In this document: in pieces, positions 175 through 16,855 of the stretch
Layout: every line of letters starts with the position of its first letter
How positions within the stretch are numbered: the first letter of the stretch is position 1
Assembly: GCA_040384485.1 (NCBI GenBank)
Contig: JAZKJH010000003.1
Span: 144,979 to 208,978 of the forward strand
Direction of reading: 5' to 3'
Source of the DNA: Patescibacteria group bacterium
GTDB lineage: Bacteria > Patescibacteriota > Minisyncoccia > Phycocordibacterales > DATDWN01
DNA: 64,000 bases
The notes under the pieces: generated by a model
Database searches by the model: none
Told to the model about the DNA's origin: nothing
What the model saw: only the letters and a program-made list of their open reading frames with translations
Position numbers and translations under genes: made by a program

Positions 175-1989
175 TTATTTACCAGCTTGCTCTAGCTCGT
201 CCTTAGCTTTTTTAATAGACAGTATTTGAGATGGGTCAGAGGTAATAATCTGTTCCTCTGTGTAAGAGGCTATGATTTTTACAGCAACATGTTTTAATCC
301 AGCAAAGAAAATACCCTCCCCTACATCCGATTCCAGTAACAGATATTTTTCCTCATCTGTTAAGTTAAAGGTTTGTTGGAGCTTGTCTATTGAGGTCGGC
401 GACTGTTTCAAAAGGATTTGAATAGAAGAGTTGGTGATAATAGGAACTCCATATGGTGACTTCATAAAGTCGTCCACATCTTGAGTGATGGTGGCAAGTC
501 CTAAGTAGTATTTTCTTCCTCTTTTTGCAAGAGAAAGCAAGAAAGATGCTGTATCTTCTGACTTCATCATCCACCAAGCCTCATCAATTACCAAAAGGCG
601 CTTCTTTAGTTTCTTTCGAACCATATTCCATATATAGTGCATAACTATATACATCGCCACCGGCTTAAGCTCATCCTCCATGTCTCGAAGTGAGAAAACT
701 ACAAATTTTTTGTTGATGTCTACGTTTGATGGTTTGTTTATGAAACCTGCCCAGGTACCTCTAGTGTATTTGGTCAGTCTTTGTGCCAATGAGTCCCCAC
801 CCTCCATTCCTGAAAGTACCAGTTCGAAGTCAGACATAAGTGGTGGTTCTATGTTAGAAAAGTTTGAGTCCGCAGTGATATCCTTTAACGCATAGGTTTC
901 AGTAATAGCTCGATCAATTATCGCGTCTTCTTCTGGAGTTAATCCTCCCATCATGATGCGGAATAGACCCACCAGGTTTATGATGTTTGAGCGAAGTACA
1001 CTAGAGAAAGACTCCCCTTCTCCTGGAGGAGGAAGTTCAAAAGGGTTTATGTGGTGTTCAGAGTTTAGAGATATATTAAAATATCTACCCCCAACTGTTT
1101 CTGCCAAGTATTCATATTCTTTTTCTGGGTCTAGAACTATCACATCTGTATCGAACATAAGAGTACGAAGGATTTCCAGTTTTGTTCCAAAAGATTTACC
1201 TGCACCTGATTTTGCAAAAGTAATAGAGTTGTAGTTTTCTAGTGAAAAACGGTCGAATAGAACCAAGGATGAGTTGTGGCGGTTTATTCCATACAAAATA
1301 CCCTTGTCTGACGTAAGGTCGAAAGATACAAATGGAAACAAAGAAGAAAGAGGTGAAGAGTTTAACTTGCTGTATACCTGCAACTCGTCTGTACCTATTG
1401 GCATAGTAGTTTTGAAAGCCTGTTCTTGTTGAAAAAGCGCTGGTTTTATATAAATAAGCTTAGCTTCAAGAATGGATTTTATCTCTGATTCGGTCTTATC
1501 TAACTCGTTGTCGGATTCTCCATAGATAGTGATATATAACCCCACATCAAAAAGTTTTTCTTGGGCCTGTTGTAGCTGGTCTCGCAAACCCTCTAAGTCT
1601 TGGTAGGCGGTGTCTAGCATAGGGTTTCGTACCAAACCCTTCGCTTCCCTAGCGTTTATCTGGCTCTGGACCTCCGCAACTTTCTTCTGAAAAGTTCTTA
1701 AAACTTGTGACGTTTCTATTGGTTGGACAAAAATAGAAACATCAAATATTTTGTCCAAGTTAATTATAGGAGAAAACCAATTTTCAGAAAGAAATCTAGG
1801 GTAAGAAATAACAAAGAAACTTCGGAGTATCTTTTCTCCAAGATTTATTTCTTTTGGTGTTACCTCTATAGCGCTGGGAGCAATGATATCTTTGAGTTCA
1901 AGATTCTGCGAATCATAGACCTCTTGTGGAAGTATGGTTGAGATATCTTGCTCTTTTGCTTTTGGTGATAAAAAGTCTAATAGTCCCAT
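175..1989 (-). CDS. virB4: VirB4/TraC/TrbE-family conjugation/T4SS ATPase (C-terminal ATPase part)
   Basis: 604-aa ORF with Walker A (AKSGAGKS) and a DEAW-type Walker B (LLVIDEAWWMM), typical of VirB4/TraC ATPases; coding-like composition across the whole length. Confidence 0.8.
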   Translation of the reverse strand: MGLLDFLSPKAKEQDISTILPQEVYDSQNLELKDIIAPSAIEVTPKEINLGEKILRSFFVISYPRFLSENWFSPIINLDKIFDVSIFVQPIETSQVLRTFQKKVAEVQSQINAREAKGLVRNPMLDTAYQDLEGLRDQLQQAQEKLFDVGLYITIYGESDNELDKTESEIKSILEAKLIYIKPALFQQEQAFKTTMPIGTDELQVYSKLNSSPLSSLFPFVSFDLTSDKGILYGINRHNSSLVLFDRFSLENYNSITFAKSGAGKSFGTKLEILRTLMFDTDVIVLDPEKEYEYLAETVGGRYFNISLNSEHHINPFELPPPGEGESFSSVLRSNIINLVGLFRIMMGGLTPEEDAIIDRAITETYALKDITADSNFSNIEPPLMSDFELVLSGMEGGDSLAQRLTKYTRGTWAGFINKPSNVDINKKFVVFSLRDMEDELKPVAMYIVMHYIWNMVRKKLKKRLLVIDEAWWMMKSEDTASFLLSLAKRGRKYYLGLATITQDVDDFMKSPYGVPIITNSSIQILLKQSPTSIDKLQQTFNLTDEEKYLLLESDVGEGIFFAGLKHVAVKIIASYTEEQIITSDPSQILSIKKAKDELEQAGK

Positions 1990-1990
1990 G

Positions 1991-2632
1991 TTAATTTGTT
2001 TTAATTGGCTTTTCTGTGTCCCCAGGATTGAAGAGTTTATAGAATAATTCTATCACCTCTTCTGTCCCGAGTCGTATAACTCGTATTCCACAACGAGATA
2101 GACCCTGCTCAACTACTGCTACTCTCTGTTCCAACTGAGTCCGGTTTTCTTCAAAGTTTGCTCGTTTGTTTTCCGCTTCCTCCGAACTACTTTTCTTTTT
2201 TAACATACTAAAAGGGCTACCACCCTTTTTTACATTTACAATAGCTGGGTCATATGAAACCACAACAAAAAAACTTTTTGTCATTATGTTGGTTGACTCA
2301 GTAAACTTCTTGACGAATTCTATGTATTCCCTGGTTTGGATTTTCATCAGCTCATTCATTTGTTCTTTGTAACGGTCCTCAAGTAGGGCTATGTAAGGCC
2401 GTATATCCAGTCGTCGTGACTCAACTACTATTTGGATAGGAAAATCTAGAGAGTTGAGAAAATCCTGATATTGCATAATAATCGCATTTCTTTCATCCTC
2501 AGATTTCAAGCTAAAGTTCAAAGATGATGCGAGCACCACCCCACGCATTGAACCATCTTTTAAAACAACTACGCCATCGCGCACTTCTTTTATTGGAACA
2601 AAGTCTTGAGTTGCTTTGGAGGTTACTGGCAT
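1991..2632 (-). CDS. VirB4 N-terminal-domain-like protein (separate ORF, 1-nt gap to the ATPase ORF)
   Basis: 213-aa ORF beginning MPVTSKATQDFVPIKEVRDGVVVLKDGSMRGVV, which resembles the N-terminus of Gram-positive-type VirB4/TraC proteins. Its TAA stop, one C, then the ATG of the ATPase ORF (TAAcATG); the two ORFs are in different frames. Confidence 0.5.
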   Translation of the reverse strand: MPVTSKATQDFVPIKEVRDGVVVLKDGSMRGVVLASSLNFSLKSEDERNAIIMQYQDFLNSLDFPIQIVVESRRLDIRPYIALLEDRYKEQMNELMKIQTREYIEFVKKFTESTNIMTKSFFVVVSYDPAIVNVKKGGSPFSMLKKKSSSEEAENKRANFEENRTQLEQRVAVVEQGLSRCGIRVIRLGTEEVIELFYKLFNPGDTEKPIKTN

Positions 2633-2699
2633 GTTTTTATTATAACACAGTAAAAATTTCTACTTCCTGATTTATAAACAAAAATTCAATTTAAAGTCT

Positions 2700-3134
2700 T
2701 TATTTAGTGGTTTTTCCACCATCCTTTGTTAGTGGGTTAAGGTTTTCGTTTATATCCAATGACCATGAAAGCTCTTTTAATTTACTATCAGAAAGTCTAG
2801 GAACGTAAACTTGGCTGTAGTTCTCCTCCACTTTTTTTACAGTTTCAATTTTTTTCTCCTGTTTTTTCCAAATATATAAGTTATTTTTAGTATAAAAAGT
2901 AAAAGCTGACTCTAGAAAGTCTATAAAAGGCTTGTTGTTTATCCTGTAGAATGCCAATGCTAGTGATAACGGAGCTATTATAGCGACAAGGATGATTGCT
3001 ATAAACAAAGGAAAAAAAGAATACATAATAAATGACATACCTGCTCCACCAACTAAGTACACAAACTGTTTTACAGTTAGTGGTCCTATCACCTTATCTT
3101 CTATTTCTATAAATTGTGGGACTTGGTATCGCAT
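2700..3134 (-). CDS. PrgI/VirB3-like small membrane protein
   Basis: 144 aa; the N-terminus MRYQVPQFIEIEDKVIGPLTVKQFVYLVGGAGMSF matches the PrgI-family pattern and is followed by two TM helices; sits directly upstream of the VirB4-like genes. Confidence 0.55.
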   Translation of the reverse strand: MRYQVPQFIEIEDKVIGPLTVKQFVYLVGGAGMSFIMYSFFPLFIAIILVAIIAPLSLALAFYRINNKPFIDFLESAFTFYTKNNLYIWKKQEKKIETVKKVEENYSQVYVPRLSDSKLKELSWSLDINENLNPLTKDGGKTTK

Positions 3135-3146
3135 TTTTTCAAATAT

Positions 3147-4145
3147 TTATTCTAATGGTTCTCTGTATGGATCCACGGCATAGCTATGGGTCGGCTTCAC
3201 AGTTTCAGCAACTTGTTTCTGTATTATAGCAGGATTTTCTATAGATTTTGTTTGTATAGGTGGAGTAGTTGTGTTTTTTGCTACTAGGTCTGGAGTAGTT
3301 TTTGGCAAAGGAACAGCTTCAGGACCAGCAGCAGGAATAACTTCATCATCGATATCTTTTGGTGCAGTAAATCTTGGAACAGGAACCGGCTGTTCTACTT
3401 TTTCTTCAATAAAATCTTTTGGTTTATAGTGAATACGATTTTCGGATGTCTTAGGTGCCTCTTGCAGTATTTTGCTTGAAGCGCTAACCATATTCTTCTC
3501 CACAAAAACAGGAGGAGTTGTTTTTTGTGGCACAAACCTTGGTGCATGATGTTTTGGTGCTACAGATACTTTTGGCTCAAGAATTTTTACACTCTCCCCC
3601 TTTTCCACCATGGGCATAATATTTGGCCTTATTTCTGGGATAGATGTAACTGGTTTTGTAATTTGAGTATGAAGTGGGGGTTTTTGTTGCTGCAGCTGTG
3701 TAGTAGGTTTTGGAGTGTTTGTTTGAGCTATGTCAGGCCTTTCAGCTACGGGACTCACCTGCTCAGTTTTTAGAAGTGGTGAGGGTTTTGAGTCCTCGCT
3801 TTCTTGGGGGGTAGGCGTTTCTGTTTTTGATGTTTTTCTTTCTACAGATTTTACGGCATATTCGAATACCCGTATTTCCAAGTCTTCAACAATCTGTTCA
3901 GATAAAAGTTTAGATATGCCTAACTCTGAAGGCATTAGTTTTATAAAATTTTCACCTTCGTCTATACCAATAAGCACAAACAGAACATTATCTGCCAGCG
4001 TTTCTGTTTGAGTGGGATTTAACGAATATTTTTTAGCGATACTCTCCGTTCTTTCTCTCCAAGATCCTTCAAAGATAAAATCCTGAACTGGTTTTGGCAG
4101 TTTTTGGAGGTAATCCGGCATGTTTTTTAGTGTTGTTTCATCCAT
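3147..4145 (-). CDS. Hypothetical protein with a ~100-aa N-terminal domain and a long Pro/Thr/Lys/Gln-rich, probably disordered, tail
   Basis: 332-aa ORF; low-complexity PT-rich C-terminal two thirds; tightly packed between the PrgI-like and VirB6-like genes (gaps of 9-13 nt). Confidence 0.5.
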   Translation of the reverse strand: MDETTLKNMPDYLQKLPKPVQDFIFEGSWRERTESIAKKYSLNPTQTETLADNVLFVLIGIDEGENFIKLMPSELGISKLLSEQIVEDLEIRVFEYAVKSVERKTSKTETPTPQESEDSKPSPLLKTEQVSPVAERPDIAQTNTPKPTTQLQQQKPPLHTQITKPVTSIPEIRPNIMPMVEKGESVKILEPKVSVAPKHHAPRFVPQKTTPPVFVEKNMVSASSKILQEAPKTSENRIHYKPKDFIEEKVEQPVPVPRFTAPKDIDDEVIPAAGPEAVPLPKTTPDLVAKNTTTPPIQTKSIENPAIIQKQVAETVKPTHSYAVDPYREPLE

Positions 4146-4153
4146 GTTGTATT

Positions 4154-6397
4154 TTAAGCAGTTGGTGTTGCAGGAGGGGTTTCTTTTGGTGCTGCAGCTT
4201 CTTCAGCTTTTGGCTTATCTGCATCAGACTCCTTAGCTTCTTCCTCTACTCTCTTCTTGGCCGCCTTCATGAGTTCTTCCATTGCTTTTTCTTCCTTACT
4301 CTTTCCTTGGAGAGCCTTTTTTGCAGCACTTGCAATTGCCCTTCTTTCACTCTGGTTTATTGGTGAGTTTGTAAGACCGGTTAATCCACCAATAAATTGA
4401 GCTGTACCCATAATACGTCCAGGATTAAGAGTTCTCTTTTCAACGGCTTCGACTCTATCAGTAAATACTTTCTTAAGCCTTGCAGCTTCAGATTTGTAGT
4501 TAGTTGCTTTGTTTTCCTCCGCCTTTTTAACAGCAGTCTCTGCGAGGGCAATATTTTCTCGCAATGTTTGCAAGCTATCTCTTTGTGACTTATTCCTGTT
4601 TTCTATTTGTTCTATTTGGTCTGCTATCTGCCTTCTCTCATCAGAATTTGTTGTTGATTGAAGGTTCATCCTCAACTCCTCTATTCTCGTCTCCCCTTCT
4701 TTTATAGATTTAGTTGCTGCTTTATTTTCTTCTTCCGCTTTCTTTTTTGCAGCCTCAGCAGCAGAGATTTCTGCATCAAATTTAGCCACTTCCACTTTGT
4801 CAGCGGCCTCCGCTTCCGCCTGCATATCCTCATTAGGTTTATATTTCTTAGCTGCTTCTTCAGCATCCTTTTTCTCCTTCTCCGCGATTGCCTTGAAGTT
4901 TAATTTCTTAGCGTCAGGAGCTTTGCCCATATCAACACCTGTTTGACTTATCAACGAAGACATTCCTGCTGAAGCTCTACCATCAAATGTGGCTGTTCTA
5001 GCTCTTTCTCCCCTATTCACTGTTATTTTCGCTAAGTTCCTTCCAACCAAACCTCCTGTTGCAGCTTTATCTTTCAAGTAATCACTGTTCGCTATCGCGT
5101 TACCTGCCCTTCCTATAGTGTTTCTACCAAGCGCTGCTGCACCTCCAAACACAGCTCCCCCAGCCAACTTACTTAATCGGCCAGTTGCTTGTCCAATAAG
5201 TTTTGAACCTTGGGTTGCAGAAGTTTTTGCCGTAATAAGGGTAAATATCGCTAAACCAATAATAATAGTGAAGTTAAAGAATAGAGATAGGAGGGACTGA
5301 GTTCCTATTGCCGCAGGACCTTGGGAAGCTCTAATAAAACCGTCACTAGAAAGCAGAGTAAGGACCACCCAGGTCATAAGCATAAACACTGGAGGAAAAA
5401 TGAGTTGTCCTTTCAAAGAGTCCCACCACTGGTTTGAGTAAGTTTTTATTGCTGGCAAGGCCATACCCATTATCGCAACAGGTGAAAGCATTAGTAATAC
5501 CAACAAAGTTACGTAACGGATTATAAAAAATATTGATATTGCAAAAAATACAAAAGAAGTAACTATAAACAGTATTGCACCCATAAGTTGTCCTACAAAC
5601 ACCTCCGGACCTGTACCGGCCACAGCAGCAAAAGTTTCACCTGAGTATATTTTATTCAAATCAAGTGCTTTCATGTACGCCACCGATAAACCAGAGATCG
5701 CCTCTCTGCTAGTATCACCCCCACCAGGTACAGAGAGTCTATCAGTTTCGTCCAATATGGCATTGTATAAGCCAATAGTTACTGCATTTGATGCGTCTAT
5801 CATAACTTTAGTGAAGAATAGTGAAAAGTTTACTAAGAGGGATGCAAGAACAAGAAAGCCCACAAACTTTTTCACATAATCTGTGCTAATCTGACCGATA
5901 ATCATCTGTATTCCATGCCAAACAAGCATGAATATAAAGACAATGTTTATCATGTCACGGATCAGTTTCCAGCCGGTATTTATACCTTCGAATTGATTAA
6001 TGCTGGTGGACATATCCATGATGGTTATATCCAAAACCATGTTCAATAAGCTTCCTGCCAGCCACAATATTCCAGAAGTTATACCAAGGATAAGTACACC
6101 AATACTTTCCAAGAAACAACCAAAAATCCATGTGGAAGGGCGGTAAAAAGTACAACCATCGCTAGGACCAGGCTGATTTGCCGCTCTCACCTCATTAACA
6201 GCTTCATCCGATCCGTCTTCGTCAAGTATGCATACCCAATTTGGGCCATCCAGGTCTCCATAGTTTACATATTTTCCAGGCTTGCCACCCTCGCCAGTAC
6301 AAGCCTGGCCGTTTACCTGGGCTAAGGAACTAGTAAAAGGAAAAAGTATTCCCGAAAAAACTATTCCTATAAAAATGTAACTGAAAAACTTTTTCAT
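4154..6397 (-). CDS. VirB6/TrbL-like polytopic membrane protein with a long C-terminal coiled-coil / KA-rich tail
   Basis: 747 aa; N-terminal signal/TM, then ~8 hydrophobic helices in the first ~430 aa, then an Ala/Lys/Glu-rich coiled-coil region. This architecture and its position next to a VirB4-like gene match VirB6-type channel subunits. Confidence 0.55.
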   Translation of the reverse strand: MKKFFSYIFIGIVFSGILFPFTSSLAQVNGQACTGEGGKPGKYVNYGDLDGPNWVCILDEDGSDEAVNEVRAANQPGPSDGCTFYRPSTWIFGCFLESIGVLILGITSGILWLAGSLLNMVLDITIMDMSTSINQFEGINTGWKLIRDMINIVFIFMLVWHGIQMIIGQISTDYVKKFVGFLVLASLLVNFSLFFTKVMIDASNAVTIGLYNAILDETDRLSVPGGGDTSREAISGLSVAYMKALDLNKIYSGETFAAVAGTGPEVFVGQLMGAILFIVTSFVFFAISIFFIIRYVTLLVLLMLSPVAIMGMALPAIKTYSNQWWDSLKGQLIFPPVFMLMTWVVLTLLSSDGFIRASQGPAAIGTQSLLSLFFNFTIIIGLAIFTLITAKTSATQGSKLIGQATGRLSKLAGGAVFGGAAALGRNTIGRAGNAIANSDYLKDKAATGGLVGRNLAKITVNRGERARTATFDGRASAGMSSLISQTGVDMGKAPDAKKLNFKAIAEKEKKDAEEAAKKYKPNEDMQAEAEAADKVEVAKFDAEISAAEAAKKKAEEENKAATKSIKEGETRIEELRMNLQSTTNSDERRQIADQIEQIENRNKSQRDSLQTLRENIALAETAVKKAEENKATNYKSEAARLKKVFTDRVEAVEKRTLNPGRIMGTAQFIGGLTGLTNSPINQSERRAIASAAKKALQGKSKEEKAMEELMKAAKKRVEEEAKESDADKPKAEEAAAPKETPPATPTA

Positions 6398-6400
6398 TTA

Positions 6401-9400
6401 TTATTTTTTACTAAAAGTTGCAACTCTCACTGTTGGGTTCCATGTGGCTACAGCATAATTTCCAGCACCATCTGTGGCTGCGTGAGGGGTGTGTGTTCTC
6501 TGATTCTCCCACAAGTTAAATTCTGATGACAGTGAGTTGTTGAATCTACCCACTACGCCATTATCGTCATGCGGTGTCACATCCGCTGCTACAGTTAAGT
6601 CCCCTGCATACCAAGAATTAAGTCCCCATGTTAATGCAGTTCTATCTGTATCAATCATTGTTACCACACCAGTAGACGATATTCTAGCTATTCCTGTTGG
6701 TAACCAATTTCGTATAAAAGTAGAAGACCCTCCAGTGAGTAGTCTTCTGTATACTTTGCTATCTGTACAGTTTGTACCTTCACATTTTTGCCATGCAATG
6801 TAGCCGTTCCCTACAGCCACTGGGTCATTGCCTACTGCAGGGCCAAGAGACTCTATTGAGTCAGTGCTTTTTTTCCATAACTTTATGTCTTCGCCGGATG
6901 ACTCCCCATCTCTAAATGCCAACCATAATGTGTTGCTACTGACTGTAAGTCTAGGGAATCCCCCAGCACCGGAATTTAGAGTAAATATTTTTTCTGTTTT
7001 TTGGTCACCGAGGTTTTTATCAAAACTAAAAAGATTAATAGCTAGATTGTTTGCACTTCGAAACGCGACATATAGTCTGTTTTGAAACCAAACAACATCA
7101 GGAAAAGAACCTACTCCCAAATCTTTATAATTTGGAGTTGAAATAGTTTGTGTCGATGCAACTGCGTTTCCTAGATTAGGAGCAAACCTTGTTATTCCAT
7201 ACTCGTAAGCTGATGTTGCAGAAAATGTTCCATCCGTGGTGTTGGCAGCTATGGTTGGCGAGAAGTTGCCGTAACCTCCTGCAAAAGCCACACCTTCAGA
7301 AACTTTTACTCCATTAGAGTTAAGTATTACAAAGGTATTTCCTGCATTGTGTGGGTTTTGCCCGATAGACGCGTACTGGTTGGACTTTGGGTTGTAAGCA
7401 AGGCTGTGCCCAGACGCTGCAGAGTTTAGGGTAATTGTCGAACCAGCCACACTACCATTACAACTAGTCATAAACTTCCCTTTTGCCCCGTTTGTTCCAG
7501 ACCAACCAACCAAGTATTTATTATTAACTGAGTTATATACAATACTCATCATTACCACAGTAGCGTTTGCTCCGGACTCTGAATACACTACAGTTTCTGG
7601 ACCAACTGTTCCTGTCAATGCATTGACAGTCCGTGCTCTGATAGAAGGGTTCCATGTAGCCGATGCTCCCGTGCCGGTGCTGTATCCTCTTTGGTATATA
7701 ACGCAGTATTCGTTCGTGCTCTCCTTTATTGCAACAGCAGGATCTCCTCTTCCATCGTCTTCAGCTACAGTAGAAAGAGAGCTTGTTAGGTTTATTCTCG
7801 GACCAACTTCTCCAGTCGTACTTATTGTTCTTAAATTAGAATGTCGTCCTGGTTTTACTGTCTGCCATACGTATACAAATTTTTTATTTTTTGAGTCGTA
7901 CTGCATAGGCGAGTTTGAATAAAACATTGAGGAGTCGTTTGGATAGCTAGTGTCAGAATGGACCAAGAAAGGACTACCAGAAAATGTTCCATCAGGGTTA
8001 ATAAAACGCCCCATAATATTTGAAGTTGTGGTTTTGTCACCATCATCCCAAGCTAACCAAACAACTAAATATTTGTTTATATCTTTTGAGTAAGCTACTT
8101 TTGGTCCTCCGGAATGCCCGCTTGTAATTGTTATTTGTCCCCCAACAGATGTTCCATCGTTGTTCATTATTTTCCCATATGTTCCGTTGGCAGATGTTCC
8201 TGCACTAACTACCAACCAGGTATTGTTGGTAGTGTTGTGTGCCAAGTTTCCACCCCAACCACCACTCGCGTTATATGAAGGAACAGTTGCTGTACCTCCC
8301 CCGCCACCACCAGGAGTGTTGGTTATCTGAATTAATTTACCATTCGAGAAAACCATTTCATTGGCAGGATTTCTTCCGATGTAAACTTTTACTGTTGCAT
8401 TTCCTACAGGAATACTGGTTGGAACTAAAGCAGTTGTTTGAGTTTTTGTGGAATTTACTGTTCCTGCAACAGACTCTCTGTTACCAGCACCATCAAAAAA
8501 CGAAACCTGATTTGTTAAGTCTGTTCCCGTTATTGTGATAGTTGTAGCTCCGGGTTTTGCAGACGAAGGCGAAACAGAGGTAATAAAAGCAGTTCCAGGG
8601 TTTGGATTGGTTTCCTCATCATCCCCACCATCTTCATCTTCTTCATCTGGTCCACCGGTACTTTCTCTACATCCACAATCATCCCCTCCACCTGCAGTAG
8701 TACAATCCATAGGAACAAATCCTTCAAAGTTTGTTTGACCCGCAGTCGCTATGGTCGCAGCTGCACCATTGATAGCGTCATACCTTTCCATGTATTCTTC
8801 TCCATCCCTCCATACAGCAATGATATCTCCCGTGGAAGGGTTATTGTTTCCATTCAGTACTTCGTCTGTGGCATTGAATCCTCTAGAAATAAGTTTTTCT
8901 TCTACAAGAGCTAGAAATCTTCTGGCATTCACTCTGCCACCCGATTCTATGTTTGGAAGGTCTGCTATGTCAGGATTTTCAGAAAGAACGGCATCCATAG
9001 CTGAACCCAAATCAGAGGCATACTTGTTTCCTGTGTCAGCACATTGACCGCCCGATGTACCAGGAACTTCATTCCCTATCCTACATCGCATAACACCAGT
9101 GTCGGGGTCAGTAAGACAAGTGAAAGTGTCCTCAGGATCGTTGACAGGCATTCTAATTGGTTGAGGTTCAGGGGCGTTTTGGAAGTCATCAATAAAGGAG
9201 TTTCCAGTCGAACCTGGTTGGCTCGTTCCTCGAAGTCCTCCTCCGTTTCCACTACCACCTACAACTCGTTCTATTAGTTGTCCAACTAACGCCCCTACAA
9301 TTTCTGTTATTTCATCGGCTGCTCCAAGTCTTTCCCAAGAAGAACCTAAACTTTTAGTAAGTTGCCCGTTGATTACTGATCCAGGAGTAACAACCTCTTT

Positions 9401-10144
9401 GGCATTAGGATCTTTATAACAATCACCCACTTCGTATCCAGCTGACAATAAATTTCCATAGTAACCTCGACTATTGTCATCCCCATCGAGCATTGCTTGA
9501 GTGATTACATACTCCTTTTTACATTTCTGAAACGACAAGAAACCACCACCCTGTTCTATTTGTTTATCTTTTTCTTCACCAGCCGCACTTACTCTCAATG
9601 ATAGTGAATTTTTTGCATCAAGATATGCCCCATAAGGGTTATTTTGACTTTTTTGAGTAATCTCAAACCACCCATCCCAACCACCCTTACTAAAGTCGTT
9701 CATAAACTCTTCGTAGTTGGCTTTTATTTTACTCAAACTACAGCTGTAATTTTCGCCACTTGTTTCTGAAAGATAATTTTTAACCAAAGCAAGTCTAACT
9801 TCTGCTTTGAAAGGAGCACACAACCGGTTTAGATTTGTATTGGATAGAAAAGAAGATGCTGTCTCATCCCCAACGTCCAAGAAAAATTGTTTTGGATCAG
9901 TTACATAACTAGGGTTTCCTTGGAATCCGGAGTTAATCCAATTTACTGTTTTTGCAGTAATCATTTTAAGGACTATTTGAGCAGCTGTGTATGCCAAAAA
10001 GTCACCAAAACCTTCTTTTGGAGCCTGAAACACATCGACATATTGAGCTTCAACCTTCTTCGGAGCAAAAGAAAAAAGCAGTGAGATTATAAAAAAAGAA
10101 AGTAGGGATTTTTTCCAAAAGTTTGATTGGGCGGAAAAAGACAT
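6401..10144 (-). CDS. Giant secreted protein (1247 aa): Cys-containing N-terminal domain, acidic Gly/Asp/Glu linker, IPT/TIG-like Ig domain, then beta-propeller-like repeats; candidate surface adhesin of the T4SS-like locus
   Basis: N-terminal signal peptide (LLSFFIISLLFSFAPKKVEAQ). TIG-like segment AFITSVSPSSAKPGATTITITGTDL. Repeated blade-like motifs (KYLVVWLAWDDGD, KFVYVWQTVKPG, KYLVGWSGTNG, LWLAFRDGE). Only 3 nt separate it from the VirB6-like gene. Confidence 0.7.
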   Translation of the reverse strand: MSFSAQSNFWKKSLLSFFIISLLFSFAPKKVEAQYVDVFQAPKEGFGDFLAYTAAQIVLKMITAKTVNWINSGFQGNPSYVTDPKQFFLDVGDETASSFLSNTNLNRLCAPFKAEVRLALVKNYLSETSGENYSCSLSKIKANYEEFMNDFSKGGWDGWFEITQKSQNNPYGAYLDAKNSLSLRVSAAGEEKDKQIEQGGGFLSFQKCKKEYVITQAMLDGDDNSRGYYGNLLSAGYEVGDCYKDPNAKEVVTPGSVINGQLTKSLGSSWERLGAADEITEIVGALVGQLIERVVGGSGNGGGLRGTSQPGSTGNSFIDDFQNAPEPQPIRMPVNDPEDTFTCLTDPDTGVMRCRIGNEVPGTSGGQCADTGNKYASDLGSAMDAVLSENPDIADLPNIESGGRVNARRFLALVEEKLISRGFNATDEVLNGNNNPSTGDIIAVWRDGEEYMERYDAINGAAATIATAGQTNFEGFVPMDCTTAGGGDDCGCRESTGGPDEEDEDGGDDEETNPNPGTAFITSVSPSSAKPGATTITITGTDLTNQVSFFDGAGNRESVAGTVNSTKTQTTALVPTSIPVGNATVKVYIGRNPANEMVFSNGKLIQITNTPGGGGGGTATVPSYNASGGWGGNLAHNTTNNTWLVVSAGTSANGTYGKIMNNDGTSVGGQITITSGHSGGPKVAYSKDINKYLVVWLAWDDGDKTTTSNIMGRFINPDGTFSGSPFLVHSDTSYPNDSSMFYSNSPMQYDSKNKKFVYVWQTVKPGRHSNLRTISTTGEVGPRINLTSSLSTVAEDDGRGDPAVAIKESTNEYCVIYQRGYSTGTGASATWNPSIRARTVNALTGTVGPETVVYSESGANATVVMMSIVYNSVNNKYLVGWSGTNGAKGKFMTSCNGSVAGSTITLNSAASGHSLAYNPKSNQYASIGQNPHNAGNTFVILNSNGVKVSEGVAFAGGYGNFSPTIAANTTDGTFSATSAYEYGITRFAPNLGNAVASTQTISTPNYKDLGVGSFPDVVWFQNRLYVAFRSANNLAINLFSFDKNLGDQKTEKIFTLNSGAGGFPRLTVSSNTLWLAFRDGESSGEDIKLWKKSTDSIESLGPAVGNDPVAVGNGYIAWQKCEGTNCTDSKVYRRLLTGGSSTFIRNWLPTGIARISSTGVVTMIDTDRTALTWGLNSWYAGDLTVAADVTPHDDNGVVGRFNNSLSSEFNLWENQRTHTPHAATDGAGNYAVATWNPTVRVATFSKK

Positions 10145-10225: not shown

Positions 10226-11050
10226 TTATATTGCTGAACCAGTTCGTTGTGCAAAGTAAGAATTTATGTCTAATAGTGCAAAGTTTAGATCTTCGCTTGT
10301 AGTGTTTTGATAGTGGTTTATTCCAGCTATTCCTGCTATTGGGTCGGAAACAGAGTCCCGCATAGCTTCAAGACTGGCGAGAATATTGCTGATGGCATTT
10401 AATAGTTTTAAATGATGCGAAGTTGCACTACTAGGCACTTCTATAGCCAACATGTCTTCAATAAAACCCTTAGTTATCCTAATTGTAGGGTCTAGTTTTA
10501 ATAAAACAGACTCATTTTCGGTCTCGATGGCAGTCATGGCGATATCTACTGGATTTTCTTTAACCTGGGTTGAGCTTTCTCTAAGAAGTCTGTTGACTGT
10601 GTTTTTGTAGCTAGTTACAAAATCTCGGTTGTTTTTGTTTACTATGTTTAAGTTTGCTTGGAGGTACACCGCCCCTTTTATCTGAGTATACTCAGGCATG
10701 GAGACAATATTTTTGGTTATTTGAGAAATCTCAGCGTCAGTGATAGTTCCATCGTCTCTAATAGATAAAAAGTACTGTGATAAAAAATCTTGAGATATTT
10801 TTGCAGTAAGGCTAGTGTCGTTAACAATTTCTTCGTCTACAGGTCTTACTACGCTTGATATTTCGTTTTGAGAAGAATCTACATCCGTTAGTATTTTTTG
10901 CCAGTCATTTTCAGTTTCTACAACAGCTCTGGGGTTTCCCGCAACCACTTGATTGTCTCCCTCGGTATTTTTTTCCTTTGTAAAAAGCCAAATACACGCA
11001 ACTATACTGGCTGAGATTATAAAAATTACAATAGTTTTATTACTAGGCAT
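10226..11050 (-). CDS. Bitopic membrane protein (N-terminal TM plus ~250-aa extracytoplasmic domain); possible T4SS accessory component of VirB8-like topology
   Basis: 274 aa with a single N-terminal hydrophobic helix (IVIFIISASIVACIWLF); first gene upstream of the giant protein on the same strand. Confidence 0.45.
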   Translation of the reverse strand: MPSNKTIVIFIISASIVACIWLFTKEKNTEGDNQVVAGNPRAVVETENDWQKILTDVDSSQNEISSVVRPVDEEIVNDTSLTAKISQDFLSQYFLSIRDDGTITDAEISQITKNIVSMPEYTQIKGAVYLQANLNIVNKNNRDFVTSYKNTVNRLLRESSTQVKENPVDIAMTAIETENESVLLKLDPTIRITKGFIEDMLAIEVPSSATSHHLKLLNAISNILASLEAMRDSVSDPIAGIAGINHYQNTTSEDLNFALLDINSYFAQRTGSAI

Positions 11051-11102
11051 ACGAAGATTATACTGCCATAATACTTTTTTTCAAAACTACTTAAGGTATT
11101 CC

Positions 11103-12764
11103 CTATATAATTCCTTTTATATACACAAAATAGTATAAAATTAGGTATGAAATCGCTATGCCTGTTAGAAACACAAAACGCAACACAAAAATAGGCTTTT
11201 CTTGGTAAGGTTTCTTCATAATTAGTCTGTACCCTATGAGTGCAGAAGGCAAGGCAATAATATACAAAAGATAAAATGATAGAAATACCGGAACTAGAAG
11301 GATGCTAAGTGCAAAACAGTAGGCTACTATTTTTATTCCCCTCTCGCCAAAAAGAGTCGGTATTGTCATTATTCCATTTGCTCTATCACCAGCAACATCT
11401 TTGATATCTTTGAAGTTTATTGCCATAGTCACCATCAACACGATTCCTAGTGCCAAAAGAGATGGAAAAGCTGAAATTTGTTTCAGTGGAGATATAAAAA
11501 AGTATCCAGCTAGTATGGTGGCCAAACATGCCACTCCTATAAGAAATGAAGAAATAATAGGGAATCTTCTAAGTCTGAGTGGAGGAACAGAATATATATA
11601 TGAAGCTGCTATATACACCAAACTCATAAAAAAAGGATAAAAACCAGCAGCCCACGCGCCCAGTAGTCCAATAATTAACCACAACCTACCAACTTCCCGC
11701 ATCTCCTCAACAGTTAAAGTCTTTTCTATCAGAGGTCTGTTTGTGTTTGATATTTTATCTATTTCAACATCAGCTATATCGTTTGTGTGTACTGCATTCA
11801 TCCACAAACCAACCCAAGCCATGAGCAAACATACCACTCCTATAAAATCTACCCACATTATATTTGAGATAATCATGGGGTTGTTGAGATAGGCAAAGCC
11901 CATACCTGATAGAAGCGATAGAGTGTAAAAGTTTACCCTCTCCAGTCTCAAGTTTCTGATAACCGCAATAAATTTATTTTTATCTATTCTGTAAAATAAA
12001 AGTGATGCCGAAATAACCGAGATAATGAACAAGATTTGAGTCAGTATTTTATTAAAACCAAGTTCAAAAAACCTGGCATATGAAACAGAGGAAACCCCCT
12101 CTCTCCAAGTGTTGTGAGATATTGTGGATTCAAAAATAACTTTTTCAAAAAATACTAAACTGTTTTCATTAGTGCTTGTGAAAATATTTGAAACCGTATT
12201 AATAATTCCTGGTGTCGATCCAATAATAAATATGAGCAAATACAAAGAAAACATTCCTAACGCTATTCTTTTATATCCATTTTTATTAATCCATAAATAA
12301 CAACCAAAACCTAGTATCATAAGAGCAATTCCGAACCGCATTCCAGAAGTCACCCCTATATTTGATGTTGTTCCTAAAAAAGTAACGAAGTTAGTTAGTA
12401 TTTCCCAGTTTGTACTGAAAATATAAGTCATTTTGCTACCAACTCCCCCACTAAAAACAAGGTCAGCAATAGGGGCTAACCAAAGAATTGGAAGTCCAAA
12501 CAATAAAATTTTCGGAGCGTTTTTGTAATCTTTGTTGAAATATCCGACTAACAAAATAGAACAAAGTGATACAGATAAAAGGAATAGAATATAGTGAATG
12601 GTTGTGTGTGGATCCAAGGGCATTATGCCGTCCGAGGCAGGACTGGAGATGTATTCAAATATAAACCTAACGAACACGATTCCTAAAAAACCCATTATCC
12701 ATTCTGATATAGAGACTCGGGTGTTTTTGATAGTATCTAGGAAGTTTGTTAACAAGAGTGTCAT
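11103..12764 (-). CDS. UbiA-family prenyltransferase fused to an extra ~270-aa N-terminal polytopic membrane domain
   Basis: C-terminal half carries the two Asp-rich UbiA motifs, NDIADVEIDKISNTNRPL (NDxxDxxxD...RPL) and DIKDVAGDRANG; hydrophobic throughout. Confidence 0.65.
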   Translation of the reverse strand: MTLLLTNFLDTIKNTRVSISEWIMGFLGIVFVRFIFEYISSPASDGIMPLDPHTTIHYILFLLSVSLCSILLVGYFNKDYKNAPKILLFGLPILWLAPIADLVFSGGVGSKMTYIFSTNWEILTNFVTFLGTTSNIGVTSGMRFGIALMILGFGCYLWINKNGYKRIALGMFSLYLLIFIIGSTPGIINTVSNIFTSTNENSLVFFEKVIFESTISHNTWREGVSSVSYARFFELGFNKILTQILFIISVISASLLFYRIDKNKFIAVIRNLRLERVNFYTLSLLSGMGFAYLNNPMIISNIMWVDFIGVVCLLMAWVGLWMNAVHTNDIADVEIDKISNTNRPLIEKTLTVEEMREVGRLWLIIGLLGAWAAGFYPFFMSLVYIAASYIYSVPPLRLRRFPIISSFLIGVACLATILAGYFFISPLKQISAFPSLLALGIVLMVTMAINFKDIKDVAGDRANGIMTIPTLFGERGIKIVAYCFALSILLVPVFLSFYLLYIIALPSALIGYRLIMKKPYQEKPIFVLRFVFLTGIAISYLILYYFVYIKGII

Positions 12765-15844: not shown

Positions 15845-16855
15845 GTGGGATTTGCTCAGATAGTGGTGAACATAAGGTCATTTATCTTCTCTTTTTTGAT
15901 AATTTCGACCACAATTATCCCTTTGCATGCCAACGCAGGAGTTATTTCTTTTATTTCCAACTTGTTTTCAGATGAGGTTTCTGCAGAGGAAATAGATACA
16001 CCTAGTCAAAATATGGCTTTGTTGCAAGCGCCTTTGTCGCCTATGGGAGCAATAGAGGAAAAAGTAGACGAACTAGTTATTGTTGATGACGCCGCTCTGG
16101 TTTCAGAAGTAGTTATGCCAGGAGAAGGTAAGACATCTAGTGATGATCAGATTAGTATTTATGTGGTTCGTTCTGGTGACACCCTACCAGCTATAGCCAA
16201 GATGTTTGGCGTTACTGTAAACACTATTAGATGGGCGAACGATATAAATGGGAATACAATAAAAGTGGGTCAAACCTTGGTTATTCTTCCTATTGATGGC
16301 GTTCAACATGTTGTTAAAAAAGGAGACACACTACAAAGCATCGCAAAGCAACACAAAGGCGATTTGGAGGAAATAATGCAATATAACAACCTAGCCAAAG
16401 ATGCAAAACTAGTTGTAGGAGATATAGTGACTGTTCCAGACGGTGAAATAGCTGCAACCCCAACACCTACTAAGAAACCAAGTTCAGGTGGAAGTAAATC
16501 CCCTAGCTACGCTGGATACTATATGAGACCTATCGTTGGTGGAATAAAGAGTCAGGGAATCCACGGTAAAAATGGAGTTGACCTAGTTTCTCATCATGGA
16601 GCAAACATTCTTGCTTCTGCAGCAGGAGAAGTCATCATCGCTCGAAGTGCTGGATATAACGGAGGATACGGATTGTATGTAGTAGTAAAACACAGTAACG
16701 GAACTCAAACTTTGTATGCTCACATGAGTAGTGTAAATGTAAGTGTTGGACAGAAGGTTTCCCAAGGAGATGTGGTGGGTAAGATGGGAAATACAGGAAA
16801 AAGCACTGGTACACACCTTCACTTTGAGATCCGAGGGGCCAAAAACCCATTCTAA
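15845..16855 (+). CDS. LysM-domain M23-family peptidoglycan peptidase
   Basis: N-terminal signal/TM, two LysM repeats (YVVRSGDTLPAIAKMFGVTVNTI...; HVVKKGDTLQSIAKQH...), C-terminal M23 motifs (HHGANI..., GNTGKSTGTHLHFEI). Confidence 0.85.
   Translation: MGFAQIVVNIRSFIFSFLIISTTIIPLHANAGVISFISNLFSDEVSAEEIDTPSQNMALLQAPLSPMGAIEEKVDELVIVDDAALVSEVVMPGEGKTSSDDQISIYVVRSGDTLPAIAKMFGVTVNTIRWANDINGNTIKVGQTLVILPIDGVQHVVKKGDTLQSIAKQHKGDLEEIMQYNNLAKDAKLVVGDIVTVPDGEIAATPTPTKKPSSGGSKSPSYAGYYMRPIVGGIKSQGIHGKNGVDLVSHHGANILASAAGEVIIARSAGYNGGYGLYVVVKHSNGTQTLYAHMSSVNVSVGQKVSQGDVVGKMGNTGKSTGTHLHFEIRGAKNPF

What the first reader, a model, noticed from the sequence alone, without database searches (positions are those of the whole stretch)
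6401..10144. 1247-aa secreted giant protein: Cys-bearing N-domain, acidic Gly/Asp/Glu linker, TIG domain, then propeller-like blades
After the signal peptide there are ~480 aa with paired cysteines (CAPF, YSCSLS, QKCKKEY, GDCYKDP, FTCLTD...RCRIG, GGQCADTG, CTTAGGGDDCGCRES), suggesting a disulfide-stabilised extracellular domain. Next is an acidic GGPDEEDEDGGDDEETNP hinge, then an IPT/TIG-like Ig fold, then ~12 repeats with the hydrophobic-x-[VIL]-x-W signature of beta-propeller blades. As the largest gene in the window, located inside the T4SS-like operon, it is a strong adhesin/tip-protein candidate and a likely determinant of host or partner specificity.
Basis: partly seen in the sequence, partly recalled or inferred. 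Interest (0 to 1): 0.6.

Follow-up and report, generated by a model that had tools for sequence, protein, structure and literature searches.

The report
Modular surface protein of a Patescibacteria T4SS
This 1247-residue secreted protein of an ultrasmall (Patescibacteria) bacterium joins a conserved, previously undescribed domain encoded next to the type IV secretion channel gene to a swappable stalk-and-two-propeller head, so it is a strong candidate for the part of the machine that touches the host cell.

Summary

The new result is how the protein is organised. Only residues ~40-300 are conserved. This helical domain has four invariant cysteines, no Pfam family and no solved structural relative. 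It defines a Patescibacteria family of at least 3,440 50%-identity clusters. In 65 of 72 species loci its gene lies within 150 nt of the VirB6-like gene (median gap 5 nt), in a fixed order p274-X-VirB6-p332-VirB3-TrsD-VirB4-...-VirB2-like pilin. Family members range from ~325 to more than 1,300 aa, and their C-terminal modules are shuffled (Ig-like, TIG, propellers, discoidin, enzymes).

About a third of short members start with a TrbJ/VirB5-type (DUF4141) N-terminal motif. The window protein has lost that motif.

Best reading: a T4SS-anchored, VirB5-position subunit that displays host-binding modules. VirB5 homology itself is unproven. Held literature on Patescibacteria T4SS reports no adhesin and no VirB5-like component.

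The parts
10046..10144 (-). Signal peptide, aa 1-33 (KK, hydrophobic core 13-27, P28, VEA|Q)
   Evidence: Hydropathy and motif inspection. P28 and A33 are conserved across the family.
9215..10045 (-). Conserved family-defining N-domain, aa 34-310. Predicted mostly helical. Invariant C109, C135, C208, C242. Motifs TVNWINSGFxGNP, GGWDxWFxxTQ, NNPYGAY, TPGSVI.
   Evidence: Present in all 84 first-round homologues. Invariant columns. AF2 model helical, pLDDT 40-92. No Pfam/NCBIfam hit. No PDB fold match. 5,979 50%-identity clusters at E<=1e-3.
9422..9520 (-). Hypervariable loop bracketed by invariant C208 and C242 (aa 209-241) inside the N-domain
   Evidence: Loop length 9-86 residues across the family with column conservation ~0.2. 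The C109-C135 spacing is fixed at 21-28.
9065..9214 (-). Low-complexity linker plus a Cys343/Cys354 beta-hairpin, aa 311-360
   Evidence: Strands 341-345 and 352-356 in the AF2 model, low pLDDT. Cys positions.
8657..9064 (-). Module B, aa 361-496: compact alpha/beta domain with C368, C481, C490, C492; function unknown
   Evidence: pLDDT >90. Found in 11/84 related loci. No Pfam hit. No PDB fold match.
8588..8656 (-). Acidic Gly/Asp/Glu hinge, aa 497-519
   Evidence: Sequence GGPDEEDEDGGDDEETNPNPG; 30% D+E in aa 501-530.
8324..8587 (-). IPT/TIG Ig-like domain, aa 520-607
   Evidence: PF01833, E 2e-5, 24.9 bits against cut-off 20.9. Beta-sandwich in the AF2 model.
7172..8275 (-). Seven-bladed beta-propeller, aa 624-991
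6404..7132 (-). Second beta-propeller-like domain, aa 1005-1247, probably five blades
   Evidence: 21 strands in the AF2 model. Weak ~49-aa internal period. Occurs as an independent module directly after TIG in P0008, P0011, P0014 and P0017, and after other sequence in P0032. Blade number is inferred.
4154..6397 (-). VirB6/TrbL-like polytopic membrane protein (747 aa). Its start codon is 3 nt after the stop of the finding's gene.
   Evidence: PF04610 TrbL, E 5e-5, 23.6 bits, just under the 25.9-bit cut-off. Found downstream of the N-domain gene in 72/84 loci, median gap 5 nt.
10226..11050 (-). p274: conserved membrane-anchored protein of unknown family, immediately upstream
   Evidence: Homologue in the same position in 71/84 loci. 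No family hit.
175..4145 (-). Rest of the operon: p332 (3147-4145), PrgI/VirB3 (2700-3134), TrsD (1991-2632), VirB4 (175-1989)
   Evidence: PF12666 PrgI; NCBIfam TrsD and VirB4 CD1110 family at 368 bits against cut-off 325. Same order in 51-58 of 84 loci.

Best explanation
The protein is a cell-surface subunit of the chromosomal Patescibacteria (Paceibacteria-type) type IV secretion system.

It is exported by Sec and cleaved after Ala33 (inferred). Its conserved, disulfide-stabilised helical N-domain (aa ~34-310) is the part that belongs to the machine. It is made together with the VirB6-like channel protein encoded 3 nt downstream. It probably docks on the extracellular face of VirB6 or at the base or tip of the VirB2-like pilus, the place VirB5/TrbJ occupies in diderm systems (inferred).

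The rest of the protein is a lineage-specific display cassette: module B, an acidic hinge, a TIG stalk, a 7-bladed propeller and a second propeller. This cassette projects away from the cell and binds a structure on the host or partner cell, giving the T4SS contact its specificity (inferred).

Shown: the domain anatomy, the family, the fixed synteny and tight coupling with VirB6, and the modular C-terminal variability. Not shown: localisation, binding, ligand and stoichiometry.
For: Conserved core with variable tail. The N-domain is present in all homologues, while C-terminal modules differ and recombine. Family length is 325-1312 aa, median 556, so many members are the N-domain alone.

Linkage to the T4SS. 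287 GTDB species genomes encode a relative. In the 84 loci examined the order UvrD-KsgA-(UbiA)-p274-X-VirB6-p332-VirB3-TrsD-VirB4 is nearly universal. VirB6 follows in 72/84, the rest being mostly contig ends, and 65/72 gaps are within +/-150 nt. A PF18895 VirB2-like pilin lies downstream of VirB4 in L001 and has homologues in 42 loci.

VirB5/TrbJ-like start. 9/33 short members hit PF13605 DUF4141 (best 32.6 bits against cut-off 30) and 11/33 hit NCBIfam TrbJ PRK13874, always in the first ~45-60 residues. hhalign of the family against a TrbJ alignment gives 87% probability, E 4e-6, over 54 columns. Bona fide TrbJ proteins carry PF07996, and one carries PF13605. DUF4141 genes sit next to traJ in Bacteroides conjugative transposons (PMC10434189).

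Extracellular character. Signal peptide, conserved cysteines, and a hypervariable loop between invariant C208 and C242. TIG and propellers of the kind found in lectins, integrins and the secreted YncE.

Context. The Patescibacteria T4SS is essential for epibiotic growth in Southlakia and lacks a relaxase and coupling protein there (PMC10633639). No adhesin has been detected in these systems (PMC12102498).
Against: There is no experimental or structural evidence for contact with VirB6 or the pilin.

The TrbJ/DUF4141 similarity covers only the signal peptide plus ~26-30 mature residues. With signal peptides removed, hhalign falls to 21.5% probability, P 1e-3. TrbJ scores are far below curated cut-offs (23.6 against 225).

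The window protein has a ~16-residue deletion that removes this motif.

There is no C-terminal anchor, so simple release into the medium cannot be excluded.

The propeller matches are fold-level only (8-12% identity) and say nothing about the ligand.

The pilin gene cannot be seen in this window because the window ends just after virB4.
Confidence: 0.55

Rival explanations
1. The conserved N-domain is a novel cell-wall-remodelling enzyme, a VirB1 substitute that opens the peptidoglycan for T4SS or pilus assembly. The C-terminal modules target it to the wall or to the host wall.
For: Monoderm T4SS need a hydrolase, and recognisable VirB1 homologues are rare in Patescibacteria (PMC12102498). The N-domain is helical, as lysozyme/SLT folds are. 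It carries invariant polar and aromatic motifs (GGWDxWF, TQ..NNPYGAY, TPGSVI) that could form a glycan groove. Some relatives carry enzyme tails such as Metallophos and Peptidase_S9.
Confidence: 0.15
2. It is a Sec-secreted adhesin or nutrient-scavenging surface protein that works independently of the T4SS. It sits in the locus only because the gene order is frozen in these tiny genomes.
For: The neighbouring genes UvrD, KsgA and UbiA are just as syntenic yet unrelated to secretion. The protein has its own signal peptide. There is no detectable homology of the bulk of the N-domain to any T4SS component.
Against: The gap to virB6 is a median 5 nt, with frequent overlap, which points to translational coupling. 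The most distant relative, P0084, keeps the pairing with a downstream 574-aa protein even where virB4 is not adjacent; that protein was not shown to be VirB6-like. The TrbJ/DUF4141-type N-terminus occurs in about a third of short members.
Confidence: 0.2
3. It is a true, highly diverged VirB5/TrbJ homologue: a pentameric stalk/tip protein that nucleates the VirB2-like pilus on VirB6, with adhesin modules fused to it.
For: The same evidence as for the best explanation. Specifically: the position directly upstream of virB6, the TrbJ/DUF4141-type N-terminus, a secreted helical domain, and a pilin in the operon.
Against: The match is short and partly driven by the signal peptide. There is no fold match. 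The domain is larger than VirB5 and has four conserved cysteines. The motif is deleted in the window protein.
Confidence: 0.3

Closest known systems
VirB5/TrbJ pilus-tip and stalk proteins of diderm T4SS (Pfam PF07996; NCBIfam TIGR02780/PRK13874), and Bacteroidetes DUF4141 (PF13605) proteins encoded next to TraJ
   Same: Sec signal peptide. Helical secreted protein. The gene lies directly upstream of the VirB6-family gene. A mature N-terminal V-x-D-x-x-N...N motif is present in about a third of short family members. A pilin gene is in the same operon. VirB5's proposed role as an adhesin at the tip comes from the review PMC12857230.
   Different: Only ~26-54 columns align. Scores are far below family cut-offs. 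No fold match. The N-domain is larger (~270 aa), has four invariant Cys and a hypervariable loop, and carries large C-terminal passenger modules. The host is a monoderm. The window protein lacks the motif.
Surface adhesins of Gram-positive conjugative T4SS (e.g. PrgB of pCF10)
   Same: A large secreted multi-domain surface protein encoded with an MPF_FATA-type T4SS and presumed to mediate cell-cell contact.
   Different: No sequence-family match. No LPXTG or other C-terminal anchor (C-terminus ...VATFSKK). Different domains. The published survey found no PrgB-like adhesin in Patescibacteria. Here the conserved part is N-terminal and tightly coupled to VirB6.
Phage receptor-binding proteins and tail fibres (architectural analogy only)
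   Same: A conserved N-terminal 'adaptor' that fits the machine, plus interchangeable C-terminal binding modules that differ between close lineages.
   Different: No homology was tested or claimed. This is a chromosomal cellular secretion system, not a virion.
Secreted seven-bladed propellers such as E. coli YncE and the PLL/BP39L lectins
   Different: 8-12% identity and no shared Pfam family. Ligand-binding residues were not compared. Equally good matches to cytosolic WD40 proteins show the similarity is only at fold level.

Membership tests
VirB5/TrbJ (PF07996, TIGR02780, PRK13874) | Profile HMM match at or above the curated cut-off over most of the ~220-250 aa protein | tested here: not met
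   The window protein has no hit. Relatives match only profile positions ~4-59, with 14-24 bits against cut-offs of 100-225.
VirB5/TrbJ (PF07996, TIGR02780, PRK13874) | Homology detectable by profile-profile comparison | tested here: inconclusive
   hhalign family vs TrbJ alignment: 87% probability, E 4e-6, but only 54 columns including the signal peptide. Without signal peptides: 21.5%, P 1e-3, 26 columns.
VirB5/TrbJ (PF07996, TIGR02780, PRK13874) | Helical-bundle fold like TraC (pKM101) or TrwJ (R388) | tested here: not met
VirB5/TrbJ (PF07996, TIGR02780, PRK13874) | Secreted protein encoded next to the VirB6-family gene in a pilin-encoding T4SS operon | tested here: met
   Signal peptide. 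3-nt gap to virB6 here; median gap 5 nt in 72 loci. PF18895 pilin in related operons.
VirB5/TrbJ (PF07996, TIGR02780, PRK13874) | Pentamer on VirB6 / location at the pilus tip | not testable with these tools
   Needs multimer modelling (structure jobs were exhausted) or microscopy.
DUF4141 (PF13605) | Pfam match at or above the gathering score (30 bits) | tested here: not met
   The window protein has no hit. Among relatives 9/33 hit, and one (L031) reaches 32.6 bits. Many family clusters carry precomputed PF13605.
IPT/TIG domain (PF01833) | Pfam match above the gathering score, and an Ig-like beta-sandwich | tested here: met
   24.9 bits against 20.9 on aa 511-615. Seven or eight strands at aa 520-607 in the model.
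Seven-bladed beta-propeller fold | Seven four-stranded blades, strong structural match, internal sequence repeats | tested here: met
Gram-positive T4SS adhesin PrgB / sortase-anchored MSCRAMM-type adhesins | Family HMM match and a C-terminal LPXTG sorting signal with TM segment | tested here: not met
   No Pfam/NCBIfam hit. No hydrophobic C-terminal segment and no LPXTG.
VirB1-type T4SS peptidoglycan hydrolases (SLT, CHAP, NlpC/P60) | Hydrolase-domain HMM or fold match | tested here: not met
   No such family, and no lysozyme-like fold.
Patescibacteria-clade T4SS locus (MPF_FATA-like; Quinonero-Coronel et al. 2025) | Chromosomal cluster with VirB4 (CD1110-like), TrsD, PrgI/VirB3 and VirB6, near ksgA | tested here: met
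   Description in PMC12102498.

The most novel reading that the evidence does not exclude
The ~270-aa N-domain is the long-missing VirB5 equivalent of a monoderm T4SS. On this reading it caps the VirB6 channel or the VirB2-like pilus of Paceibacteria-type Patescibacteria. It has been turned into a plug-in platform for exchangeable receptor-binding heads (propellers, Ig-like, discoidin, enzymes) and also carries a disulfide-bracketed hypervariable loop. Together these would set which host cell an episymbiont can attach to and feed from.
Probability: 0.3. Interest if true: 0.75.

Novelty: new variant of a known kind. Interest (0 to 1): 0.6.

Why it matters
Patescibacteria make up a large share of bacterial diversity. 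They live on other cells, and in the one genetically tractable species the T4SS is essential for that lifestyle (PMC10633639). What the machine touches and how host range is set are unknown.

Published surveys found no adhesin and no VirB5-like component (PMC12102498; PMC12857230). This gene family is large, unnamed, tightly coupled to virB6 and modular at its C-terminus. That makes it a concrete candidate for the host-contact element.

It also suggests testable predictions. C-terminal module type should track host taxon. Deletion should phenocopy T4SS loss. The N-domain should bind VirB6 or the pilin.

Tried and rejected
1. Whole-protein Pfam, NCBIfam and PDB sequence searches gave nothing. 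A profile of the N-part against PDB sequences gave only a 0.21 E-value hit in the variable region.
3. I considered that TrsD (1991-2632) and VirB4 (175-1989), 1 nt apart, were a frameshifted single VirB4. I rejected this because the split is the normal TrsD+VirB4 arrangement in these systems (PMC12102498) and recurs in ~55 loci.
4. I tried to see the genes beyond virB4 for this very genome. The VirB4 look-up found no record, and the only contig recovered for P0001 ends inside virB4.
5. The exhaustive representative search lists only the top 150 hits, so the distant tail, where TrbJ-like proteins might bridge, could not be inspected.
6. The TrbJ homologues retrieved were all at least 71% identical to R751 TrbJ, so the TrbJ profile was shallow.
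7. RK2 accession BN000925 was not in the plasmid collection. R751 was used instead.
8. The promoter and terminator scan was no better than shuffled controls overall.
Full report
1. THE OBSERVATION

The stated coordinates hold a single ATG-initiated ORF of 1247 codons on the minus strand (6401..10144). The plus-strand reading is full of stops. It is the largest ORF in the window. It is identical to an NCBI MAG protein annotated only as 'hypothetical protein [Patescibacteria group bacterium]' (P0001).

The N-terminus has the features of a Sec signal peptide: K11-K12, a hydrophobic core at residues 13-27, P28, then V-E-A33|Q34. No other TM-like segment is present. P28 and A33 are invariant or nearly so across the family.

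The acidic hinge GGPDEEDEDGGDDEETNPNPG lies at aa 497-517.

The TIG call is confirmed. Scanned alone, aa 511-615 matches PF01833 at 24.9 bits against a cut-off of 20.9.

2. WHAT THE PROTEIN IS MADE OF

BLAST mapping of 84 homologues shows five independent modules:
- A: aa ~40-300, present in every homologue.
- B: aa ~361-496.
- TIG: aa ~520-607.
- Propeller 1: aa ~624-991.
- Propeller 2: aa ~1005-1247.

The modules recombine. P0008, P0011, P0014 and P0017 have propeller 2 directly after TIG. P0004 (2004 aa) has two propeller-1 copies. Other relatives end in Bact_surface_Ig-like, InlK_D3, SdrD_B, F5/8 type C, Metallophos or Peptidase_S9 domains.

Module A has four invariant cysteines. The C109-C135 spacing is fixed at 21-28 residues. 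C208 and C242 bracket a loop that varies from 9 to 86 residues, with column conservation ~0.2.

3. THE GENOMIC SETTING

All on the minus strand, the gene is followed after 3 nt by a VirB6/TrbL-like protein (4154-6397). Next come a Pro-rich 332-aa protein, PrgI/VirB3, TrsD and a CD1110-type VirB4 (368 bits against cut-off 325). It is preceded by a membrane-anchored 274-aa protein of unknown family, a UbiA-family protein, KsgA and a UvrD-family helicase. This is the chromosomal, MPF_FATA-like T4SS locus described for Patescibacteria, including its proximity to ksgA (PMC12102498).

A scan of one genome per GTDB species found relatives of module A in 287 genomes. The 80 best were kept, and essentially all are Paceibacteria/Zambryskibacteria/Parcubacteria-type MAGs.

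In those 80 loci plus four fetched by exact protein look-up, the order UvrD-KsgA-(UbiA)-p274-X-VirB6-p332-VirB3-TrsD-VirB4 is almost invariant. VirB6 follows X in 72 of 84 loci, and the exceptions are mostly contig ends. The median X-VirB6 gap is 5 nt, and 65 of 72 gaps are within +/-150 nt.

X itself ranges from 325 to 1312 residues (median 556). Module B occurs in 11 loci, TIG in 8, propeller 1 in 3 and propeller 2 in 2.

Downstream of virB4, related operons carry a PF18895 VirB2-like pilin (L001), with homologues in 42 loci. This window ends 174 nt after virB4, so its own pilin cannot be seen, and attempts to extend the contig failed.

The family is large. An exhaustive profile search found 5,979 50%-identity clusters at E<=1e-3 and 3,440 at E<=1e-30. 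Wherever a source names a member, the name is 'hypothetical protein'.

4. A LINK TO VirB5/TrbJ

Many short members begin, right after the signal peptide, with A-Q-W-V-V-x-D-P-x-N-x-x-x-N.
- Nine of 33 short members hit Pfam DUF4141 (PF13605). The best is 32.6 bits against cut-off 30.
- Eleven of 33 hit NCBIfam PRK13874 'conjugal transfer protein TrbJ'.
- These hits always fall in the first ~45-60 residues, and the TrbJ scores are far below cut-off.

Many family clusters carry precomputed PF13605. Genuine TrbJ proteins carry PF07996, and one carries PF13605. In Bacteroides conjugative transposons the DUF4141 gene is listed beside traJ (PMC10434189). In R751, trbJ lies just upstream of trbK-trbL.

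Profile-profile comparison of the family with R751 TrbJ alone gives 29% probability. Against a 22-sequence TrbJ alignment it gives 87%, E 4e-6, over 54 columns. With the signal peptides trimmed it falls to 21.5%, P 1e-3, over 26 columns.

So there is a reproducible but short resemblance at the mature N-terminus, in the gene position that VirB5-family proteins occupy. The rest of the domain does not align and no fold match exists. The window protein and a subclade (QY[VI]D[VI]...) have a ~16-residue deletion that removes the motif. I therefore treat VirB5 homology as unproven and VirB5-like position and role as the working model.

5. MECHANISM

Best explanation (confidence 0.55): a Sec-exported T4SS surface subunit. 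Its conserved N-domain anchors it to the VirB6/pilus apparatus. Its lineage-specific C-terminal cassette (module B, acidic hinge, TIG stalk, two propellers) is the distal host-binding head.

Shown: anatomy, family, synteny and coupling, modular variability. Inferred: cleavage, docking, exposure, binding.

Rivals:
- A novel VirB1-like wall hydrolase (0.15). Against it: no hydrolase signal, and a LysM+M23 peptidase conserved next to the locus at 15845-16855.
- A T4SS-independent adhesin in frozen synteny (0.2). Against it: the near-zero intergenic distance and the TrbJ-type start.
- The stronger claim of true VirB5 homology (0.3).

The CylK enzyme match is a 9%-identity fold match among hundreds of propellers, and a signal peptide is present.

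6. WHAT IS KNOWN

The Patescibacteria T4SS is published, and in Southlakia epibionticum it is essential for epibiotic growth (PMC10633639; PMC12102498; PMC12857230).

Those papers report VirB1-, B2-, B3-, B4-, B6- and (rarely) B8-like components. They state that no adhesins such as PrgB were detected. VirB5 is mentioned only for one diderm-type system. The FEMS review says VirB2/VirB5 are not found in Gram-positive T4SSs apart from Patescibacteria, and there it describes only the pilins.

I found no description of this family in the held literature. That library is incomplete, so prior description elsewhere cannot be excluded.

7. VERDICT

The family-defining, machine-linked part is the ~270-aa N-domain. 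The TIG-propeller region is an optional, exchangeable head.

Novelty: a new variant of a known kind (a T4SS-associated tip or adhesin subunit). Interest 0.6.

Noticed in passing
window 1991-2632 and 175-1989 (minus strand): The VirB4 N-terminal-like protein (TrsD, 213 aa) and VirB4 (604 aa) are separate ORFs only 1 nt apart. This looks like a frameshift, but it is the conserved TrsD+VirB4 arrangement (about 55 of 84 loci; described in PMC12102498).
   Followed up: yes
window 11057-11084 (minus strand): The best sigma-70-like match in the first 16 kb (TTGAAA-16-TATAAT, 11/12) ends 6 nt before the start codon of p274 (11050). This hints that the operon starts here, possibly with a leaderless or very short-leader mRNA. 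Overall promoter counts were not above shuffled controls.
   Followed up: no
window 10226-11050 (minus strand): p274 is a membrane-anchored 274-aa protein with no family hit. It is conserved immediately upstream of the N-domain gene in 71/84 loci, so it is probably another unrecognised T4SS component (a VirB8-like role is possible but untested).
   Followed up: partly
window 4154-6397 (minus strand): The VirB6/TrbL-like protein has a ~280-residue C-terminal Lys/Glu/Ala-rich, probably coiled-coil tail (aa ~470-747), i.e. an 'extended VirB6'. Its N-terminus has a signal-like segment and four Cys before the first TM block.
   Followed up: no
window 15845-16855 (plus strand): A LysM (x2) + Peptidase_M23 protein is present at the same relative position in L001/L002. 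It is a candidate peptidoglycan-remodelling partner of the T4SS in place of VirB1.
   Followed up: partly
window 3147-4145 (minus strand): A Pro/Thr/Lys-rich 332-aa protein without signal peptide or family hit sits between VirB6 and VirB3. A homologue in this position was detected in 51/84 loci.
   Followed up: partly
L013 (JBEBJM010000026.1, 7.8 kb, labelled Nitrospira sp.): This contig carries the full Patescibacteria order UvrD-KsgA-UbiA-p274-X-VirB6, so it is almost certainly mis-binned into a Nitrospira MAG. Many other loci with this Paceibacteria-type order are titled 'uncultured Candidatus Saccharibacteria', and those labels may be unreliable.
   Followed up: partly
L003/L004 (locus of P0084): In the most distant relative, the N-domain starts at about aa 234 of a 1199-aa protein. 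The gene is followed 8 nt later by a 574-aa protein with no Pfam hit and then by ribosomal protein L19, with no virB4 within 10 kb. The X + downstream-partner pair may persist apart from the ATPase genes. Whether the 574-aa protein is VirB6-like was not established.
   Followed up: no
P0004 (2004 aa) and P0002 (1409 aa): P0004 contains two copies of the seven-bladed propeller module. The closest relative, P0002, has a ~170-aa insertion between the N-part and the TIG-propeller part, and is 66% (N) and 75% (C) identical to the window protein. Where the C-terminal head is shared, it is at least as conserved as the N-domain.
   Followed up: partly
window 11103-12764 (minus strand): A UbiA-family prenyltransferase has an unusually long (~300 aa) extra N-terminal polytopic region. 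It is wedged between ksgA and the T4SS genes in 34/84 loci.
   Followed up: no
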